Below are positions 8,194 through 62,712 of a stretch of DNA of 64,000 nt, piece by piece. This DNA comes from Eledone cirrhosa. Its lineage: Eukaryota. The position numbers and the translations under genes are program-made. The notes under the pieces are model-generated. The model was not told where the DNA came from. It ran no database searches and saw nothing but the letters and a program-made list of their open reading frames with translations. Positions within the stretch are counted from its first letter, which is position 1. Each line of letters opens with the position of its first letter. The stretch spans positions 91,946,001 to 92,010,000 of the forward strand of contig OZ024747.1 of the NCBI GenBank assembly GCA_964016885.1, in the 5' to 3' direction.

Positions 8194-12986
<4,793 letters not shown>

Positions 12987-51418: not shown

Positions 51419-51527
51419 TTGCCTTTCATCCTTACGGGGTCGATAAAATAAAGTACCAGTAATGCTCTGGGTAATTGCTGGCCTTGTGCCAAAAGTAGAA
51501 ACAATTATTATTGTTATTATTATTGTT
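51419..51527 (+). mobile_element. 5'-truncated main-family SINE whose (ATT)n tail abuts Dong copy A
   Basis: ttgcctttcatcc...gtagaaacaattattattgttattattattgtt. Confidence 0.9.
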
Positions 51528-53704
51528 CTTTGAGTCTCAGTCATTGATGTTAGTTAACTGGAAACTTTGTTGAAATGAATATCAAGCCACTACCTGCAGC
51601 CTCAGATATTCAGGACGTATCGGAGGGTTCTTGCTGTTCCTAGCAAGCATACCCTTTGAAGCGTTCCAAAAAGCGTGGTGGGGCCAATTTTCTTTAACCA
51701 TCCCTGGAAACTTTTTGAGATAGTACCTAGTGCGCCTATGACACTTTGACTTCATGGTGGTTCCAAATCCTTTTTACCTCCCACTTTAAGTCCTGGTATC
51801 GGATAATTTTTTCCCTCTCCTTCTCTTGCACTCTCGTGTCGAATGGGCAGGCCACATCCACAATCAGGCACGATCTTTTTTCCTTGACCACAACCACCAG
51901 GTCAGGTCTATTGTGTTCCAGTTTCTTGTCCGTCTGTATCCTAAAATCCCATAGCACCTTCACCTGATCGTTTTCTATCACCGACTCTGTTTTATGCTCA
52001 TACCACTTCTCAGAATGTGGTAAATTGTTTAGTTTGCATAGATGCCAGTGGATCACCCTGCCTATCACATCATGTCGCCAGCCTTTATAGTGAGTCTGGG
52101 CTAGGTGTTTACACTCGGATACAATGTGAGCCACAGTCCCCTCTCTCTCTCCACAGATCCTGCACAGTGGGCTAGCCTCCTCCTTGCAATTATGGTGTTT
52201 CAACCACTTCGTTTTGAGGGCCTGCTCTTGCGCAGCCATTAGCAGTCCTTCTGTAGCCTTTTTAAGGTCTCCTCTTTTCAACCAGTTCCATGTCTGTGGA
52301 TCTCTGAATTCAGTTTTCTCAAAGAAGGTACTATGAAGGGATTTTTCATGAAGGCTGCTCTTTCTCCTTGTTGTTATTTCCTCCTTGGACATCCACTGGT
52401 CTATTGTCCTCTCCTTCAGTACAATTCTGAGCATTGGCTCCTTACTATCAGTCACGTATTTGTGTAGGTTGTTTTTCTCCATCTGAACACAGTCCTCTAT
52501 GCTGATAAGACCTCTTCCACCTTCAGATCTCCTTAAGTAGAGTCTATCGACATCACTCCTCTCGTGGAAAATGTTGTAGATAGTCAATAGCTTCCTAGTC
52601 TTCCTATCCATTTCATTTTGTTCAGCAACATTCCATCTCAGAATTCCCGCACTGTACCTAATAATAGACACAGCTCGGGAATTTACTGCACTTATGGCAT
52701 TCCTACTGTTCATGTGTGACTTTAATACGCTCCTTACTCTCCGAATGTATTCAGATCTTATCAATTCCTTCATTTTTTTGTTCTTGATATGATCAGTTTC
52801 CAGAACACCCAAATACTTGTATCCTTCTTCCGTGTCAATTTCCTTTATCATCTCACCTGTTGGTACCTGGATTCCGTTGCTTCTGCTCAATTTACCCCCT
52901 CTTCATCACAAGGACTCCACACTTACTAATACCAAATTGCATACATATATCATTGCTGAAAATACGGACAGTGTCAACAAGCACATCCAACTCCTTCTCA
53001 CCCTTCCCGAAGAGCTTAAGATCGTCCATGAAGAGGAGGTGATTGATGGTAAGCTCTCCTTTTCCCAACTTGTATCCTGCTCTCATTTTTCGCAGTATAA
53101 TGGTCAGGGGCATCAGGGCAAGGACAAACAACAGAGGGGACAGACTATCTCCCTGGAAGATACCTCTCTTGATCTTCACGCCTCCTCCCAAGGATTCTCC
53201 AGCTGATGTTAACTCTGTTTTCCAGGACTTCATACTTTTGCCCAACAACTGTCTGATGTTATCTGCCACCTTGAAGATCTCTAGGCTTTTGGTGATCCAA
53301 GAATGAGGCACCATGTCAAATGCCTTTTTGTAGTCTATCCATCCCATGGCAAGACCAGTGTGTCTCCTCTTGCAATTCCTCATTACCATCTTATCAATAA
53401 GTAACTGGTCTTTTGTACAACGGGACTACTTTCGGCATCCTTTCTGTTCGTCCGGTAACAAGTTGTTTGTGTGGAGGTGATGGTAGATTTCCTCAGACAT
53501 AATGCTTGTCAACAGTTTCCACATTACGGACAGACATGTGATAGGTCTATAGTTGGTAACATCATTACCCTTGATTCGGTCTTTCATTACCAGAACTGTG
53601 GTACCTTTTGTCAACCAATCTGGTACCTCACCTGACATCAAGCAGTCATTGAACATGGTTGTCAGTTTCGGGTGGAGGGATGTTATATTTTTAATCCAAT
53701 ACCC
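51528..53704 (-). mobile_element. R4/Dong-clade non-LTR retrotransposon, copy A (5'-truncated, disrupted RT-RLE ORF)
   Basis: [49 protein letters not shown]. Stop near 53426, frameshift near 52890, 10-bp deletion near 51742. (ATT)n on both sides. Confidence 0.92.
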
Positions 53705-53934
53705 AATTATTATTATTATTATTATTGGCGACCTACGTAGTAAATCGTATCATTGTGAGCTCCGCAAAGGTTTGTTATTTCCGTTTGTTAAAAATTGCCA
53801 TTTATGGAAAATTTTATTGTTAACTGTTTATAAGCACACCTACATTGTTTTCCGAAAAGGACACCCAAAAAGAATGGGGCCTTGTGCCCAAAATTTTAAC
53901 TTTTATTATTATCAAAAAATTTCTTTGAAAAAAA

Positions 53935-55917
53935 ATGGCTAATTCACCTCTGCACGAAGCAGCTGAAAGCCTTCCTCACAAAATAACACCTAACACCGAC
54001 ACCACCATTGTAAATGTTACTACGTTTGCCAACAAAAAAAAAATATAAGCAGTAGCAATATTTTAAATTTGTCTCAGGCAGACATTCATTTCCCGCCATT
54101 ACCAATGACTGCAGGTGTTAAAGCCTCCACCACCACCATCACCGCGACAACCACCACCCCCACCACCACCGCGACAACAGAAACAAAAGAAGAAAAAAAT
54201 AAATTAACTCGTGATGTCGAAATGAAATCAAGCAAAATGGACTCTTCCCCACCAAAGACGACTGACGTCACCACCACCACAACTGAAACTAAAGTTAATA
54301 TTAACACAAATAACGATAGCAACAACAACAGCAATGACATTATAAAACCGACCCTCAGTTTCGCCATAGTAGCAAAACAGTTCGAAGCATTTACGGTAAC
54401 TCAGGAGGATTTAGAAAATGCCAAACAAATGGTAAAGAAAGATGGGTACAGGGTAAGCCTCACCCCCCCCCCCCCACCCCACCCCCCACCTAATAAAATG
54501 GAGCATCGGCGCCTATGCACCGTGTCGTATAGAACAATAAATGTAAAATCGCGCCGAGTGGAACGGGCATCCGAGTCCCAAATCCAAAAAGCTTTGGGAC
54601 ATGTGTGGGCAAGAAAAACCCACATCAGACGTGGGCAAAAGTATGGAACCGTGGACGTGTTCTTTGAAACACCAGAGGAGGCTAGAGAACACTCCATGGC
54701 CCCATTAAGAAGTGACGACTTCACACTCGTCCCAAGCTATTGTGGCCAGAGACTCGTAAAGATCAGGGTGACCCACGTTCCACCGGCCATCGAAATTCCC
54801 TGGCTAATAGCGGCTGTCCTCGCCGGCATCGAAGCCAACACGAAAATAATAGCAATAGCAAAAGAAAAGCAGGAGAACTGGTCCGGATCTGGGATGGAGC
54901 TCCTGATCCAAGCGGACCAAAAAAGCATTGAGGAGATCCCAGAGGTAATAGACCTCACAGACGGCAGCCACCTCACGGTAATTGTCGAGGGCAGAAGACC
55001 TAGGTGTGTCGTTTGTGGTGAAGGAACCCACCTAAGGGCTTTCTGCCCTCAGGCTAAAAGGTTGAGGCCACCTCTCCTACCCACCCCAGTGACACAACCA
55101 TCAACACCACCAGTAGCAGAGATGGCAGCAACAACTGTAGCAGCAACAACAGAAGCAACTATAACAGCAACAACCCCAGCAACAGTAGCAAAACCAACAC
55201 CACCACCACCACCAGCAAAACCAACACCACCACCACCCAACGCTTCAGAACTAGCACCAGCGCCTACACCATCCACCACGCCACAACCAAAACTAACGGC
55301 TGTGGAGGATTTTCCACTCCCCGGCCTATCACAACTGGAGACAGATTGTGACGACGAGGAGTGGGAAACGATATCCGGAAAAAAAAAAGAAACCAAAAAA
55401 GAAAAAATTCTCTTCCTTCCCCCTCCAAAAACAAAATACAGAGGGAAACAAATAAATTAAGAAACAAAAAAGTTAGGACAGATATGCCACCATCCAAACA
55501 CCAACACCATCACCATCATTAACCCCAACACCACCATCACCTACACCACAAAAGTCACCAAAATCCGAAACAGAAACAAACCCACAACAAACGCAAACAA
55601 AACAAAACAACCAAAACGATACACACTACACAGCATTAAATTTGAACAACAAGCAATTATTACACTACATCCAACACAACACCAGCATCACAGAAAAAGA
55701 CTACACAACAACCCCAAAATTCACACCACCTCCACACATACAAATCACTCGCATCACACAGAAAACGTACATGACACTAAAACAAAAATTCCCCAAAGAC
55801 ATCGGAGACTTCCGACAAGTACTCTCCAGGAGGATTTATAAGGACATCCTTCCTGAGGAGGCCACAAGCAGTGAAAAGGATGGAAAAACCGTCCTTCCCC
55901 TACGAGAAGTAAGGTAA
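53935..55917 (+). pseudogene. Tx1 ORF1 (nucleic-acid-binding, CX2CX4HX4C knuckle, Pro/Thr-rich linker); frameshifted
   Basis: Main block 54069-55460 contains CVVCGEGTHLRAFC. An upstream ATG at 53935 and a downstream frame ending at 55917 are separated by A-run frameshifts. Confidence 0.78.
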
Positions 55918-55951
55918 GTGGTCTTTCCCATCTTTTCTACTCCTTTTCAAC

Positions 55952-58900
55952 ATGACCTCACTCAGAATAGGGAGCATAAATGCGCGTGGCTTGGGGTCGT
56001 CATGGAAGCAGGGCCACCTGCTCAACGACCTCAGGTCACTAAACATAGATGTAGTGGCCAGCAGCGAGACCAGAATCTCCGAAGCACAGGCTTTCGCACC
56101 GATCTTCGGCGGCTACGATGTGTACGCATCTCCCAGCCGTCCGGGATCGGGGGGAGGAGTTGCTGTGCTTTTTCTGAGAGGTTTGGATCTTGCCATACGG
56201 GCCATATTCCTGGACCCAGAAGGTAAGTTGGTGGTGCTGGACGTGACCAGCGGAGACGGCCAAGCTTTCAGGTTAGTGGCCGTCTATGCCCCGACAGGAG
56301 CAGGGCGGCCTTATTTCTTCCGGCGTCTGGAGACCTTTCTTGGAACGTCCCGCTCTTTAGTGTTAGTGGGCGACTGGAACGGGATCTTAGATGCACGCTG
56401 GGATTGTGTGGGATTAGTGGATAGGGAAGGAGGGTGCAAGAGTCTCACCAACCTGCTCAGACGTTTTGAACTGTCTGACAGGTACCGAATGGATTTCCCG
56501 AATGTACCAATGTGGACTTGGACAAATCGCATATGGTCATCCAGATCATATCTAGATAGAGTATTTTGTAGGGAAATAGATAGGTCTAGCATAGGCTGTC
56601 CACAATTCAAGATAGTCAGCTACACGGACCACAAATTCGTGATCTGTGTGCTTGACTTAGATAGGCTTCATAGACGAGGATCCGGCTACTGGAAGCTAAA
56701 CGCGTCCTTACCAGCGCGCAAGGCCTACAGAGACCGGATTAGCGAACTAGTTAAGCGGGCGTTGACGGGGGCCATCGTCAACAACAAGTGGTGGTTTGCT
56801 CTGAAAAGAGCAATTAGAATAGAGTCCATTAGGTTTAGTAAGACTTTAGCAATAGAGAAAAATAGAGCAGAGGGAAAATTAGTTAGAAAATTAGATGAGG
56901 CGCTTAGCAAAGGCATCGCGACCGACGTACTTGCGGCGAAATTGGCCCTTGACCAATTCTTCAATGCAAAGCACGAAGGCTGCGTTGTCAGAGCTAGGGT
57001 GCGTGCTCTCAGACACGAGGGGACGAAAGCCGTTCAATGGGCCCGAGTGGCGGAGGCGCGTCGTGGCAACAAAGCCACGATCCGGTCTTTGGTGGACCAC
57101 GACGGGCGTATGCTACTCGATCCCGGGCAAATGTGTGAAGCTTTTCAGCGACACTTCGCTCGACTGTTCGGGGGCAGTGGCGGGCCGGGTCGAGGGATGG
57201 ACTTTAGTGTCTACCTCGACGGACTGCCGCGGCTTTCGGCCACTGAGGCGGAGTGTTGCGAAAAGCCGATAACAACCGCTGAAGTACGGGATGCAATGAC
57301 TAGTTGCACAAGGGGTAAATCGCCTGGTTTGGATGGTCTGCCCTATGAACTTTACGTACAAATGCCAAACTTGTTCGGAGGCCTCTTGGCGGACGTCTAC
57401 TGCAACTGGCAACAGAACGGGAGAATTCCCAGCTCTGTGAGCCGAGGAGCGGTGGCGCTGCTGAGAAAGGATCCGAAAAAGGGGGATAACATAGATAATT
57501 TTAGGCCCATAACTCTGCTAAACACAGAGTTCAAGATTTTGGCCAAGGTGCTAGCAAAGAGGTTGGCGCTTGTCGTTGGTGGTCTGGTGGGAGAGGCGCA
57601 GACATGCGCCATTCCCGACAGATCCATCCACGACAACCTCCACCTCATGCGATACATCGTAGAGAGGGTAGCTAGGGAACCTGGCACGGGTGGGTCTTTG
57701 ATCAATTTAGATCAGTCGAAAGCCTTCGATAGGGTCAACCATCGTTACCTAGCGGCAGTCCTGAGGGCGGCTGGCTTTGGGCCCGTCTTCAGAGGCTGGA
57801 TCGCTGCCATGCACAGCGACATCTGCTCTGTAGTGAGAGTGAACGGTCACCTTTCGGAACCGTTCAACATCATGCGCTCGGTCCGCTAAGGATGTCCCCT
57901 CTCATCCCTATTGTACGTATTGACTCTCGAGCCATTACTGCACAAACTGGAGACGTTGAAGGGGTCCCGCGCGAACTAGGATGCGGAAGATCCGTGTCAG
58001 CATATGCCGACGATGTCACCGTAGTGGTGTCGAACGCCAAACACATCGAGGCGATCGGCACTACACTAAGAGAATACGAAGCGGTGACAGGAGCAATGAT
58101 CAACCAGGAAAAGTCAGTGGGCCTGCAGCGGCACCTGGAGAGGCAGGTCCATGCCGTCCAACAGCGTCGTCGGGCGCTGGACGGACGGACCGGTTAAATT
58201 GCTAGGGGTCTGGTTCGGTCCAGACCTCCAGACGGACAAATACTGGGACGAGGTGACGAGCAGGGTGGCTTCTCTCACCCAGAAATGGGCGGAGAGGAAG
58301 CTATCCCTGAAAAGTCGAGCGGAGGTGGCGAATGCGTACATCGCATCCGTCATCTACTACCGCCTGACCGTCGTACCTTGTCCTAAGCCCCGCCTGACTG
58401 CGCTGGAGCGTTTGCTCTTTCGCTTCTTGCGGAAGGGACGCGCTCCGATGGTCAGGCGGTCTCTCTGCTGTCAACACCCGCTACGTGGAGGGCTGGGCAT
58501 GCCGTGGCTGATGATGCGCAGACACGCGCTCAGGCTACGACATCTCCACCTCTTCCTCGACGGTGATTAGGTGTGGTCGCCGTTTGCTAGACACGTTTTT
58601 CCCCAGCTCGTCTCCTTGACGGAGCTGCAGTCCTGGGTCAAACGAAGACCGAGAGGGAGCGCTTGGAATGTCTTCAGGCGCTCACAGCCCTAGACCAATC
58701 GGGCAATATGATCGGTGGAAACTCCACCTTGGCGTTCTATAGGGGATTAGTGGAGGGGAAGAGCGACGACGTACTTGGAGAAACTCTAGGCGTCGACGAA
58801 AATCAACTAGCCAATCTCTTCGGAAGGACTTTCGGGCCGGGGCCTATGGACAACTTCCAGAAATCCCTGGCCTGGCAGTGCTACCGAGGAGCTTTGCCAG

Positions 58901-59361
58901 TTCGGGATAAACTCTACAGGCATGGAGGTGCCGTCAGCCGGGCATGTCCGAGATGCGCACAGGGCGACGAAACCGTGCTGCACGCACTCGTCCAGTGTCC
59001 GAGCATTGCTGACTTGTGGGTTTATGTCGAACACCTGCTGTCACGTGTAGGACGGATCCAGCTATCAGCTGAGTCCATCGTGAGGATTGCCCCGCCCCCT
59101 TCCTTTAGCCGGGAAGGGCAGGCAGTTTTTATCTGTCTGGTGGCCATGGCGAAAGAGATAGTATGGTGGACACGTTTGAAAGGGCTGAAGACGAGCACTT
59201 ACCTCTTCGGTGATGCCCTGATTAACTTTTTCAAATTTTATTTGAAAAGGAAAATCAGGGTAGAGAGGGAAGTGCTCTCTTCCCAGCATTTTGTTGAAAG
59301 ATGGGTGAGAGAAGCAAGTATGGCCCGAATGAATGGGCCTTCTCTGAGTATGTGTCTGTAA
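55952..59361 (+). pseudogene. Tx1 ORF2: APE endonuclease, reverse transcriptase, C-terminal CCHC
   Basis: SINARGL, SSETR, GGVAVL, VYAP, GDWN, YLDRV, TDHK, GYWKLN, KSPGLDGLP, FRPITLLN, DQSKAFDRV, VR*GCPLS (stop at 57887), YADD, CPRC..ETVLHALVQC. Several frameshifts. Confidence 0.93.
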
Positions 59362-59632
59362 ATTAAAGGTGGAAAACTGGGAGAGGGCACTTGCCCTGGT
59401 GGTCAGGGCCACTGTGGTCTTTTAATGGGCTTTCTCCACAAATGTCCCTCGGAAGTCTCCCCCCTATTGGGGAATTTTTCTTTGTTATTTTATTTCAACC
59501 TCTGTTTTTTTTACACGCAGAAATGCCCATTTGTACCGTCCTGCATTGTCCTGTACTGTCCTTAATGTCTACTTTATGTAAACCCTTGTGGTTAATAAAG
59601 AAAACATTATTATTATTATTGTTATTGTTATT

Positions 59633-62344
59633 CCTTGAATCTCAGTCATTGATGTTGGTTAACTGGAAAGTCCGTTGGATTGAATATCAAGCCACTACCT
59701 GCAGCCTCAGATATTCAGGACGTATCGGAGGGTTCTTGCCGTTCCAAGCAAGCATGCCTTTTGAAGCGTTCCAAAAAGCGTGAAGGGGCCGATTTTCTTT
59801 AACCATCCCTGGAAACCTTTGGAGATAGTCCCCAGTGCGCCTATGACAATCGGGATCACTTTGACTTCATGGCAGTTCCAAATCCTTTTCACCTCCCACT
59901 TTAGGTCCTGGTATCGGTTAATTTTCTCCCTCTCCTTCTCTTGCACTCTCGTGTCGAACGGGCAGGCCACATCCACAATCAGGCACGATCTTTTTTCTTT
60001 GTCCACAACCACCAGGTCAGGTCTATTGTGTTCCAGTTTTTTGTCCGTCTGTATCCTAAAATCCCACAGCACCTTCACCTGACTGTTCTCCATCACCGCC
60101 TCTGGCCTATGCTCATACCATTTCTCAGAATGTGGTAGATTGTTTACTTTGCACAGGTGCCAGTGGATCACCCTGCCCATCACATCGTGTCTCCAGCCCT
60201 TATAGTGGGTCTGGGCTAGGTGTTTACACTCGGACACAATGTGAGCCACAGTCTCCTCTCTCTCTCCACAGATCCTGCACAGTGGGCTAGCCTCCTCCTT
60301 GTAGATATGGTGCTTCAACCACTTCGTTTTGAGGGCCTGCTCCTGCGCAGCCATTAGCATTCCTTCTGTAGCCTTTTTGAGGTCTCCTCTTCTCAACCAG
60401 TTCCATGTCTGTGGATCTCTAAATTCAGTTTTCTCAAAGAAGGTACTATGAAGGGATTTTCCCTTAAGGCTGCTCTTCCTCCTTGATGTTATTTCCTCCT
60501 TGGGTATCCCCTGGCCTACTGTCCCCTCCTTCAGTACAGCTCTGAGCATTGGCTCCTTACTATAGGTCACGTATTTGTATAGGTTGTTTTTCTCCATCTG
60601 AACACAGTCCTCTATGCTGATAAGACCTCTTCCACCCTCAGATCTCCTTAGGTAGAGTCTATCGACATCACTCCTCTTGTGGAAAATGTTGTAGATAGTC
60701 AATAGCTTCCTAGTCTTCCTATCCATTTCTTTTTGTTCAGCAACATTCCATCTCAGAATTCCCGCACTGTACCTAATAATAGACACAGCTCGGGAATTTA
60801 CTGCGCTTATGGCATTTCTGCTGTTCAGATGTGACTTCAATACGCTCCTTACTCTCCGAATGTATTCAGTTCTTAACAATTCCTTCATTTTTTTGTTCTT
60901 TATGCCATCAGCCTCCAGAACGCCCAAATACTTGTATCCTTCCTCAGAGTCAATTTCCTTTATCATCTCACCTGTTGGTATCTGGATCCCGTTACTTCTG
61001 CTCAACCTACCCCTCCTCATCACAATGACTCCACATTTACCAATACCAAACTGCATACATATATCACTGCTGAAAATACGGACAGTGTCAACAAGCACAT
61101 CCAACTCCTTCTCACTTTTTCCGAAGAGCTTAAGATCGTCCATGAAGAGGAGGTGATTGATGGTAAGCTCTCCCCTTCCCAACTTGTATCCTGCTCTCAC
61201 TTTTCGCAGCATAATGGTCAAGGGCATCAGGGCAAGGACAAACAACAGAGGGGACAGGCTATCTCCCTGGAAGATACCTCTCTTGATCTTCACGCTTCCC
61301 AAGGATACTCCAGTTGATGTCAACTCTGTCTCCCAGGACCCCATACTCCTGCCCAGCAACTGTCTGATGTTATCTGCCACCCTGAAGATCTCCAGGCTTT
61401 TGGTGATCCAGGAATGAGGCACCATGTCAAATGCCTTTCTGTAGTCTATCCATCCCATGGCAAGATCAGTGTGTCTCCTCCTGCAATTCCCCATTACCAT
61501 CTTATCAATAAGCAACTGGTCCTTTGTACCACGTGACTTCTTTCGGCATCCTTTCTGTTCGTCCGGCAACAAGTTGTTTGTGTGGAGGTGATGGTAGATT
61601 TCCTCAGACACAATGCTCGTCAACAGTTTCCACATTACGGGCAGACATGTGATAGGTCTATAGTTGGTAACATCATTACCCTTGATTCGGTCTTTCATTA
61701 TCAGAACTGTGGTACCTTTTGTCAACCACTCTGGCACCTCACCCGACACCAAGCAGTCATTGAACATGGCCGTCAGCTTCGGGTGGAGGGATGTTAAATG
61801 TTTAATCCAATACCCCTGCACACCATCTGGGCCTGGTGATTTCCAGTTGGTTAGTTTTTTGGCTTGCCCCTTAAGAGTTTCAACTGTGATACTCAAATCA
61901 GTCTGTTGCTGTGCCTGCTCACCGATCTCCCTCTGTACTGTCTCAATCCACCCTGCCTGGGCATTGTGTCTAACATCCTGCTCCCATATTCCTCTCCAGA
62001 ATGTTTTAGCTTGTTCCGCCCCAGGGATCAAGTCGTTGCCTCTTTCTTTCCCCTCAAGCTGTCCAAACAGCATCTTCTGGTTGTTGTCGAACATGCGGTT
62101 CTGTTTATACTGACTGACTCTGTTCTCGTATCGCCTGATTTTGGCACTCTTTGCTACAATGCGTTGCTTCAATTCCTCTATGATAATATTTAGCTTTTTA
62201 CTCCTAGTTTTGTATTTTATTTCCAGTCTATTTTTAGTGCCTATGTTTTTTAGTGTCCCATTCAGTAGTGACTCAAGCTTTCCTATGTCATTTCTCATTT
62301 CCCCGATTTGCCCACTCAGTCGCTTCCTCCACCACGGCTCTGCT
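59633..62344 (-). mobile_element. R4/Dong-clade retrotransposon, copy B (5'-truncated, young)
   Basis: Shares its 3' UTR with copy A. The frame continues upstream as AEPWWRKRL. The 3' tail is the shared (ATT)n at 59606-59632. Confidence 0.93.
59707..62298 (-). CDS. Dong/R4-type RT + CCHC + restriction-like endonuclease (863-aa uninterrupted but N-terminally truncated ORF)
   Basis: [89 protein letters not shown]. Confidence 0.9.
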   Translation of the reverse strand: MRNDIGKLESLLNGTLKNIGTKNRLEIKYKTRSKKLNIIIEELKQRIVAKSAKIRRYENRVSQYKQNRMFDNNQKMLFGQLEGKERGNDLIPGAEQAKTFWRGIWEQDVRHNAQAGWIETVQREIGEQAQQQTDLSITVETLKGQAKKLTNWKSPGPDGVQGYWIKHLTSLHPKLTAMFNDCLVSGEVPEWLTKGTTVLIMKDRIKGNDVTNYRPITCLPVMWKLLTSIVSEEIYHHLHTNNLLPDEQKGCRKKSRGTKDQLLIDKMVMGNCRRRHTDLAMGWIDYRKAFDMVPHSWITKSLEIFRVADNIRQLLGRSMGSWETELTSTGVSLGSVKIKRGIFQGDSLSPLLFVLALMPLTIMLRKVRAGYKLGRGELTINHLLFMDDLKLFGKSEKELDVLVDTVRIFSSDICMQFGIGKCGVIVMRRGRLSRSNGIQIPTGEMIKEIDSEEGYKYLGVLEADGIKNKKMKELLRTEYIRRVRSVLKSHLNSRNAISAVNSRAVSIIRYSAGILRWNVAEQKEMDRKTRKLLTIYNIFHKRSDVDRLYLRRSEGGRGLISIEDCVQMEKNNLYKYVTYSKEPMLRAVLKEGTVGQGIPKEEITSRRKSSLKGKSLHSTFFEKTEFRDPQTWNWLRRGDLKKATEGMLMAAQEQALKTKWLKHHIYKEEASPLCRICGEREETVAHIVSECKHLAQTHYKGWRHDVMGRVIHWHLCKVNNLPHSEKWYEHRPEAVMENSQVKVLWDFRIQTDKKLEHNRPDLVVVDKEKRSCLIVDVACPFDTRVQEKEREKINRYQDLKWEVKRIWNCHEVKVIPIVIGALGTISKGFQGWLKKIGPFTLFGTLQKACLLGTARTLRYVLNI

Positions 62345-62661
62345 CATTTTGTTGAAAGATGGGTGAGAGAAGCAAGTATGGCCCGAATGAATGGGCCTTC
62401 TCTGAGTATGTGTCTGTAAATTAAAGGTGGAAAACTGGGAGAGGGCACTTGCCCTGGTGGTCAGGGCCACTGTGGTCTTTTAATGGGCTTTCTCCACAAA
62501 TGCCCTCGGAAGTCTCCCCCCTATTGGGGAATTTTTCTTTGTTATTTTATTTCAACCTCTGTTTTTTTTACACGCAGAAATGCCCATTTGTACCGTCCTG
62601 CATTGTCCTGTACTGTCCTTAATGTCTACTTTATGTAAACCCTTGTGGTTAATAAAGAAAA

Positions 62662-62712
<51 letters not shown>
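62345..62712 (+). repeat. Duplicate of the Tx1 3' end (59287-59605) plus (ATT)n
   Basis: 318 vs 319 bp; by eye the copies differ only by a 1-bp indel. Confidence 0.93.

What the first reader, a model, noticed from the sequence alone, without database searches (positions are those of the whole stretch)
59287..62712. ~320-bp duplication flanking Dong copy B with the geometry of a giant TSD
59287-59605+(ATT)n reappears at 62345-62662+(ATT)n, fused directly to the truncated 5' end of Dong B with no ATT spacer. By eye the copies differ by one base, whereas the Tx1 ORFs carry several stops and frameshifts and Dong B's ORF is open. This fits TPRT primed on the + strand in the ATT tail, with second-strand joining ~330 bp to the left, roughly an order of magnitude longer than usual TSDs. 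Alternatives are a cDNA template jump onto the target or onto Tx1 RNA, or an independent truncated Tx1 insertion.
Basis: partly seen in the sequence, partly recalled or inferred. Interest (0 to 1): 0.75.

Follow-up and report, generated by a model that had tools for sequence, protein, structure and literature searches.

The report
Rare 330-base LINE insertion duplication
A young jumping gene sits between two copies of the same ~330 bases of neighbouring DNA, which it likely duplicated as it inserted; this is a rare but known kind of insertion scar and not what its family usually leaves.

Summary
The repeat is real: 59287-59605 and 62345-62662 differ by one deleted base and no substitution. It is a local copy. 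Both carry C at 59544/62601, where 30 of 30 sampled Tx1 relatives have T. Only 22 of 1,536 other motif-bearing copies carry that C, each at least 3 substitutions away. Its age fits the very young Dong B (2 private changes in 2,712 nt). Best reading (0.7): a 319-334-nt target-site duplication made while this 5'-truncated Dong inserted, its far end at a lone AAT. It is not the family rule: of 139 other young Dong copies, one has a 129-nt duplication and one a 30-nt one, both truncated copies. A jump onto Tx1 sense RNA has the wrong orientation. Long TSDs are published (R9, 126 bp; truncated L1 in cell culture), and this scan noted similar 170-200-nt cases in other genomes.

The parts
51499..53704 (-). 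Older 5'-truncated Dong-like copy A (92% identical to copy B)
53706..53726 (+). (ATT)7 tract between the 5' end of Dong A and the 5' end of the Tx1-like element: the usual head-to-head junction, with a tract
53727..59605 (+). Tx1-like APE LINE, full span, ORF2 broken; 14 substitutions and 2 indels private to this copy in its last 1,706 nt
59287..59605 (+). Left (original) copy of the duplicated unit: end of ORF2 plus 3' UTR of the Tx1-like element; carries the rare C59544
59606..59620 (+). (ATT)5: Tx1 tail and inferred site of the priming nick for Dong B (position within the tract unknown)
   Evidence: nick position inferred
59621..59632 (-). Dong's own 3' tail with two AAC interruptions, shared by most young copies
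59633..62344 (-). Dong-like copy B: very young, 5'-truncated RLE-type LINE with open 878-aa frame (RT, CCHC, PD..D motif); 62345 may also belong to it
62345..62662 (+). Right copy of the duplicated unit; same C at 62601; lacks one T; joined to Dong's 5' end with 1 nt exact and 7-of-9 imperfect microhomology
62663..62712 (+). Pure ATT tract (about 16.7 units), inferred to be the original Tx1 tail, followed by single-copy DNA

Best explanation
The 319-nt repeat is a local copy of this Tx1 element's 3' end, and it was likely made in one event as an unusually long (319-334 nt) target-site duplication while the young Dong B copy inserted. Inferred steps: (1) Dong nicked the + strand in the Tx1 (ATT)n tail and reverse transcription ran rightward from it; (2) synthesis stopped or was joined early, 2.7 kb into a roughly 4.5-5.2-kb element; (3) the 5' join was made not inside the tract, as in nearly all other copies, but about 330 nt to the left at a lone ATT/AAT triplet (59288-59290), probably helped by imperfect pairing between the cDNA and that site; (4) fill-in of both staggered ends duplicated the intervening DNA. 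Whether the far end was a nick by Dong's nuclease, a host nick, or a cDNA switch onto the target strand cannot be told from sequence.
For: Geometry: the unit abuts both ends of Dong B in direct orientation. Local origin: C59544 is in both copies; T in 30 of 30 first-listed motif-bearing relatives. The motif plus this C occurs in 24 of 1,538 motif copies, two being the window's; the other 22 differ from the window copy by 3 or more substitutions. C59544 is one of 14 substitutions private to this Tx1 in 1,706 nt. Age: Dong B has 2 private changes in 2,712 nt against 29 colinear copies, predicting 0.47 substitutions between the copies (P(0)=0.62); a duplication as old as the Tx1 gives P(0)=0.005. 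One event explains both the repeat and the missing tract: a TAA tract lies at the called 5' end in 38 of 39 and 93 of 100 other copies. With C62345 given to Dong the flank ends in AAT, the phase class seen in 78 of 100 junctions. The imperfect microhomology score is reached by 1.7% of control positions (scoring chosen after seeing the junction). A second locus, L252, shows the same geometry with an exact 129-nt duplication. Precedent: PMC6895275 (R9 126 bp; template-jump model for TSDs), PMC5223499 (L1 TSDs over 100 bp in up to 10% of HeLa events), PMC2912911 (very long TSDs go with 5'-truncated L1).
Against: Only one diagnostic substitution, and it recurs: 4 of the 22 other carriers have it on otherwise different young haplotypes, and 18 belong to sub-lineages with 59554C. 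A master-like Tx1 copy (L205) differs from the window copy only at 59544 and in poly-T length. A pure TSD starts identical, so the missing T needs a fill-in error, a later mutation or a base-call error. Element-free local tandem duplication of a Tx1 3' end exists in this genome (L205), so duplication does not need Dong. No N run was seen in 1.97 Mb of loci, so the absence of N at the junction says little about contig joins.
Confidence: 0.7

Rival explanations
1. A local tandem duplication came first (slippage or template switch from the ATT tail back to the ATT at 59288), and Dong B then inserted in the tract between the two units, leaving only one ATT unit on its 5' side.
For: L205 holds two identically truncated Tx1 3' ends in tandem, 1 substitution apart, with no element between. 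The junction can be read with one ATT unit.
Against: Needs two rare, equally recent events at one tract. L205's units are bounded by ATT tracts on both sides, while the window's Tx1 has only one ATT triplet at 59288. 11 of the other 12 multi-copy Tx1 loci compared had copies 7-28 substitutions apart. Dong 5' flanks with fewer than 3 units: 9 of 100 by automatic call, about 4 after inspection of the 7 flagged.
Confidence: 0.1
2. Assembly join: a contig ending inside the repetitive Dong was joined without a gap to sequence from the empty haplotype, which begins 319 nt before the Tx1 tail.
For: Dong B is identical to many genomic copies, a natural break point. A 1-base difference could be haplotype difference. 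No N run in any fetched locus, so gaps may not be visible.
Against: The join falls on a base shared with Dong, leaves the flank in the usual AAT phase and shows imperfect microhomology, none of which a mechanical join predicts. L252 shows the same geometry on another contig.
Confidence: 0.08
3. Post-insertion repair: Dong B inserted normally, and a later break in its 5' part was repaired by copying the nearby Tx1 3' end (microhomology-mediated template switch) and rejoining through the ATT tract, deleting Dong's 5' part.
For: Gives the same final sequence, including the shared C59544 and the microhomology. Dong ends joined to foreign sequence occur (L031 ends in TTAGGG repeats; L314 joins inside another repeat).
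Against: Needs a second event within the short life of Dong B. 80 of 139 young copies are 5'-truncated anyway, so the truncation needs no later break.
Confidence: 0.07
4. An independent 5'-truncated Tx1 copy inserted head-to-head at Dong B's 5' end (possibly homogenised later by gene conversion with the left copy).
For: Tx1 3' stubs of 310-340 nt after ATT tracts are common (345 overlapping pattern rows), some start at exactly 59287 (L040, L096, L099), and head-to-head Dong/Tx1 junctions are common.
Against: It would have to carry C59544 on the same haplotype: 0 of 1,536 other motif-bearing copies do (copies with a change inside the 24-nt motif are not counted). Such stubs next to another Tx1 were 7-28 substitutions away. 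It would also have to lose the ATT tract.
Confidence: 0.04
5. Dong's reverse transcriptase jumped onto Tx1 RNA.
For: RLE reverse transcriptases can jump between templates without homology (PMC6895275, passage).
Against: Orientation: Dong cDNA is the + strand and the Tx1 piece is sense on the + strand, so the template had to be Tx1 minus-strand nucleic acid. Only an antisense transcript of this very locus would fit.
Confidence: 0.01

Closest known systems
Long TSDs (>100 bp) of de novo L1 insertions (PMC5223499 and PMC2912911, passages; Gilbert et al. 2005 not held, seen only as cited)
   Same: Sporadic, variable length, tied to 5'-truncated copies, explained by a distal second nick or join.
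   Different: Those are APE-type L1 in cultured human cells (at most 10% in HeLa, 57-91% in NER-deficient lines); this is an RLE-type element in an assembled animal genome, with far ends at AAT motifs.
R9 of bdelloid rotifers, 126-bp TSD (Gladyshev and Arkhipova 2009; not held, seen through a passage of PMC6895275 and titles in reference lists)
   Same: RLE-type non-LTR element with a TSD over 100 bp.
   Different: R9's stagger is described as a property of the element; here 137 of 139 other copies show no duplication of non-TAA sequence, and this one is 2.5 times longer.
Dong, DongAg, DongBg: TAA-targeting elements (PMC3812793, passage); R4 with 13-bp TSD (PMC6895275, passage)
   Same: TAA target, TAA tail, RT followed by CCHC and PD..D motif.
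   Different: No long TSD for Dong turned up in searches (open-access library only). Clade placement not tested by a tree. PMC3812793 lists Dong among APE-type elements; that it is RLE-type is my recall, and matches the protein here.
R2 'Join' 5' junctions (PMC11331408, passages) and annealing-type LINE 5' junctions (PMC4245944, passages)
   Same: Direct fusion of a truncated cDNA to upstream target with little or imperfect microhomology.
   Different: Here the join lies about 330 nt from the first nick on the side that duplicates target DNA.

Membership tests
Target-site duplication | Direct repeat abutting both ends of the insert | tested here: met
Target-site duplication | Repeat copied from the local target, not from elsewhere | tested here: met
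   shared C59544; 0 of 1,536 other motif copies with the same haplotype; rests on one substitution plus poly-T length
Target-site duplication | Same age as the insertion | tested here: inconclusive
   compatible (P(0)=0.62) and much younger than the Tx1 (P=0.005); cannot separate simultaneous from slightly earlier or later
Target-site duplication | Empty allele holds a single copy of the unit | not testable with these tools
   right flank single-copy in the assembly, no alternate contig; no relatives held
Target-site duplication | Junction present in raw reads | not tested
R9-type programmed long TSD | Same long duplication at essentially every insertion | tested here: not met
   1 of 139 copies over 100 nt, 2 of 139 with 30 nt or more of non-TAA sequence
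Dong (R4 clade, RLE non-LTR) | Reverse transcriptase domain | tested here: met
   RVT_1 E=4e-23; best solved relatives are R2 proteins, E=1e-30
Dong (R4 clade, RLE non-LTR) | C-terminal CCHC knuckle and PD..D restriction-like nuclease motif | tested here: met
   aa 689-706 and 774-791; motif patterns are recalled, not from a library
Dong (R4 clade, RLE non-LTR) | Inserted in TAA repeats with a TAA tail | tested here: met
   38 of 39 and 93 of 100 copies with a 5' tract; tails
Dong (R4 clade, RLE non-LTR) | Groups with Dong/R4 in an RT tree | not tested
Tx1 clade | APE endonuclease before RT, C-terminal zinc motif, separate ORF1 | tested here: met
   Exo_endo_phos, RVT_1, zf-RVT; 488-aa upstream frame with no Pfam match
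Tx1 clade | Groups with Tx1 in an RT tree | not tested

The most novel reading that the evidence does not exclude
Dong's 5' joining step is guided by the AAT motif rather than by a fixed distance: when the cDNA is truncated it can use an AAT or TAA tract 100-330 nt away, so about 1-2% of truncated copies duplicate neighbouring DNA. With thousands of young copies, this genome would hold tens of such events, a natural data set on where the second strand of an RLE element is cut or joined.
Probability: 0.35. Interest if true: 0.55.

Novelty: new member of a known kind. Interest (0 to 1): 0.32.

Why it matters
How the second strand of a LINE insertion is cut and joined is still debated (PMC6895275). 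Normal Dong junctions hide this step inside pure TAA repeats. Rare copies whose duplication runs out of the repeat, as here and at L252, show where the far end can fall; both long cases end at AAT. As a single locus it is an uncommon but known scar. It would matter more if a genome-wide count showed that far ends consistently fall on AAT motifs.

Tried and rejected
(DNA search with the 319-nt unit) scored 40 of 98 candidates and skips common words. It returned mostly copies sharing the rare C, so the variant looked invariant and the test looked inconclusive; the exhaustive pattern count (538 copies) corrected this. One search (Dong 3' end as DNA) found nothing for the same reason. One search ended in a script error and was rerun. 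In one search an apparent exact 176-nt TSD at L139 was Dong's own 5' end in a head-to-tail array, caused by a wrong reference start; it vanished. Flank similarities at L123 (85%), L112, L135, L144, L241, L268, L274 and others were separate insertions of related elements or lacked TSD geometry. The idea that 59287 is a special Tx1 truncation hot spot was dropped: the 100 listed rows (of 345) start at many positions across about 59262-59296. A search for an empty allele found only the window. Gladyshev and Arkhipova 2009 and Gilbert et al. 2005 were not held; one search found nothing. No supplements were read.
Full report
Observation. The left copy is the 3' end of a Tx1-like APE LINE spanning 53727-59605 on the + strand. 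It is followed by (ATT)5 and then by a Dong-like RLE element on the - strand, 59633-62344, with an open 878-aa frame holding RT, a CCHC knuckle and a PD..D motif; its best solved relatives are R2 proteins. The two AAC interruptions at 59621-59632 belong to Dong's tail, as most young copies have them. The right copy starts directly at Dong's truncated 5' end and runs into about 17 ATT units and single-copy DNA. C62345 is also the next base of intact Dong copies, so the duplicated unit starts at 59287 or 59288 and is 319-334 nt long, depending on where in the left tract the first nick lay.

Context. Both families are abundant and share ATT tracts in opposite orientations. A 24-nt motif of this Tx1 subfamily occurs 1,538 times; the Dong C-terminus gave 29,182 candidates, of which 150 were scored, all 100% identical. 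Tx1 3' stubs of 310-340 nt after an ATT tract are common (345 overlapping rows, 100 listed), and three start at exactly 59287 (L040, L096, L099). An independent truncated insertion was therefore a serious rival.

Is the right copy local? The first DNA search was biased towards rare words and hid the answer. In the first 30 motif-bearing loci (all on contig C1; two are near-duplicates of each other), 30 of 30 have T at 59544 where both window copies have C. The motif together with this C occurs 24 times; two are the window's, and the other 22 differ from the left copy by 3 to 17 substitutions. Eighteen of them belong to sub-lineages marked by 59554C and four carry the C on different young haplotypes, so the change recurs, but never on this haplotype among the copies counted. 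Copies with a change inside the motif are not counted; those seen were at least 3 substitutions and one indel away. C59544 is one of 14 substitutions private to the window's Tx1 in its last 1,706 nt against 22 colinear copies (two or three lie next to indels and may be alignment effects). Of 12 other loci with two Tx1 3' ends, 11 had copies 7-28 substitutions apart and one (L205) 1 apart. The right copy was thus copied from this Tx1 after it gained C59544. The weakness is that this rests on one substitution and a poly-T length.

Age. Dong B differs from all 29 gap-free comparable young copies (of 39) at only two positions in 2,712 nt. That predicts 0.47 substitutions between duplicated copies, and none is seen (P=0.62); a duplication as old as the Tx1 would give none with P=0.005.

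Is this what Dong does? I examined 139 other young copies: 39 of the 40 rows (copies at least as long as Dong B) and 100 of the 150 rows (the first 100 after skipping places already sampled or in the same region; all on C1). Eighty are 5'-truncated and 59 full or nearly full. A TAA tract lies at the called 5' end in 38 of 39 (the exception was a mis-called end) and 93 of 100. Of those 7, one was mis-called, one had a tract 28 nt away, one was unresolved and four had none or an inverted one. Two copies show duplication of non-TAA sequence in TSD geometry: L252, an exact 129-nt match holding a compound microsatellite and ending in a TAA tract, and L275, 30 nt with 3 nt of microhomology. Both are truncated. 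So duplications over 100 nt occur in 1 of 139 (95% interval 0.02-3.9%) or 1 of 80 truncated copies (0.03-6.8%), not counting the window. Ordinary TSD length cannot be read, because both flanks are pure repeats (medians 51 and 39 nt).

Mechanism. Shown: the geometry, the local origin, the young age and the rarity. Inferred: priming on the + strand in the Tx1 tail, as target-primed reverse transcription of a minus-strand element requires; early joining of a truncated cDNA; a far end at the lone ATT at 59288-59290; fill-in that duplicates the interval. Two details fit. With C62345 assigned to Dong, the flank ends in AAT, the phase class of 78 of 100 junctions. Dong's next nine bases also pair imperfectly (7 of 9) with the target at that point, a score reached by 1.7% of control positions (a post-hoc measure). 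A distal nick and a cDNA switch onto the target strand give the same product; PMC6895275 (passages) merges them in one model, in which a template jump melts the DNA between the cuts and creates the TSD. A jump onto Tx1 sense RNA would give the opposite orientation and is excluded by the sequence itself.

Rivals. A prior local tandem duplication later split by Dong (0.10) has a model in L205 but needs two rare recent events at one tract. Repair after insertion by templated copying (0.07) gives the same sequence. Independent Tx1 insertion (0.04) and an RNA jump (0.01) are poorly supported.

Comparison with what is known. PMC6895275 (passages) gives 126 bp for R9, 13 bp for R4, 9 bp for R8 and 10-20 bp for APE LINEs. 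PMC5223499 (passages) reports L1 TSDs over 100 bp in at most 10% of HeLa events and in 57-91% in NER-deficient lines, attributed to a distal nick. PMC2912911 (passages) notes that extremely long TSDs accompany 5'-truncated L1. PMC4245944 and PMC11331408 (passages) describe annealing and direct-join 5' junctions. PMC3812793 (passage) lists three TAA-targeting Dong elements. PMC5035012 and PMC2861651 gave only reference-list titles. The R9 paper and Gilbert et al. 2005 were not held. Searches showed no report of a long TSD for Dong, but the library lacks most subscription papers. The finding works like the sporadic long TSDs of truncated L1 and is not an R9-type programmed stagger. Earlier notes of this scan describe 170-200-nt cases around RLE elements in other genomes and the shared ATT target in this one; they are unchecked and were not used as support.

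Verdict. Real, local and most likely a long TSD; a new instance of a known rare outcome. Interest 0.32. The bolder reading, that Dong picks its 5' join by the AAT motif and regularly duplicates 100-330 nt in a small share of truncated copies, rests on two loci (probability 0.35) and is directly testable on the whole assembly.

Noticed in passing
L252 (G000:C1:197443315-197451814): 5'-truncated young Dong with an exact 129-nt duplication of a compound microsatellite in TSD geometry, both ends in TAA tracts: a second long-TSD candidate.
   Followed up: yes
L275 (G000:C1:250716313-250724812): Truncated Dong with a 30-nt non-TAA duplication and 3-nt microhomology; a 45-nt Tx1 3' stub lies just outside it.
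   Followed up: partly
L205 1411-1782 and 1806-2177: Two Tx1 3' ends truncated at the same base (window 59236), 1 substitution apart, in tandem with only ATT between: an element-free local duplication.
   Followed up: partly
L031 near 6392: A young Dong copy ends at its 5' side directly in a long (TTAGGG)n telomere-like array.
   Followed up: no
L139 and L140 (G000:C1:165452379-165466872): Head-to-tail Dong copies with the same 5' UTR deletion and the same tail length, suggesting tandem duplication or repeated use of one RNA.
   Followed up: no
L141, L299, L325: Short (15-28 nt) repeats of Dong's own 5'-terminal bases at the 5' junction, like re-priming or slippage during joining.
   Followed up: no
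full-length Dong copies, e.g. L116 2041-3200: The 5' UTR holds internal repeats of about 325 nt in variable number, so full-length copies range from about 4.4 to 5.2 kb; the full ORF is 1,141 aa.
   Followed up: no
window 51499-59632: Dong A (-), ATT tract, Tx1 (+), ATT tract, Dong B (-): both families use the same tracts in opposite orientation, as at many fetched loci.
   Followed up: partly
window 8928-11105: Another APE plus RT LINE on the + strand, broken by a stop.
   Followed up: no
L251 near 1465: Nearly full-length Dong whose 5' flank switches from AAT to ATT repeats (inverted tract) just before the junction.
   Followed up: no
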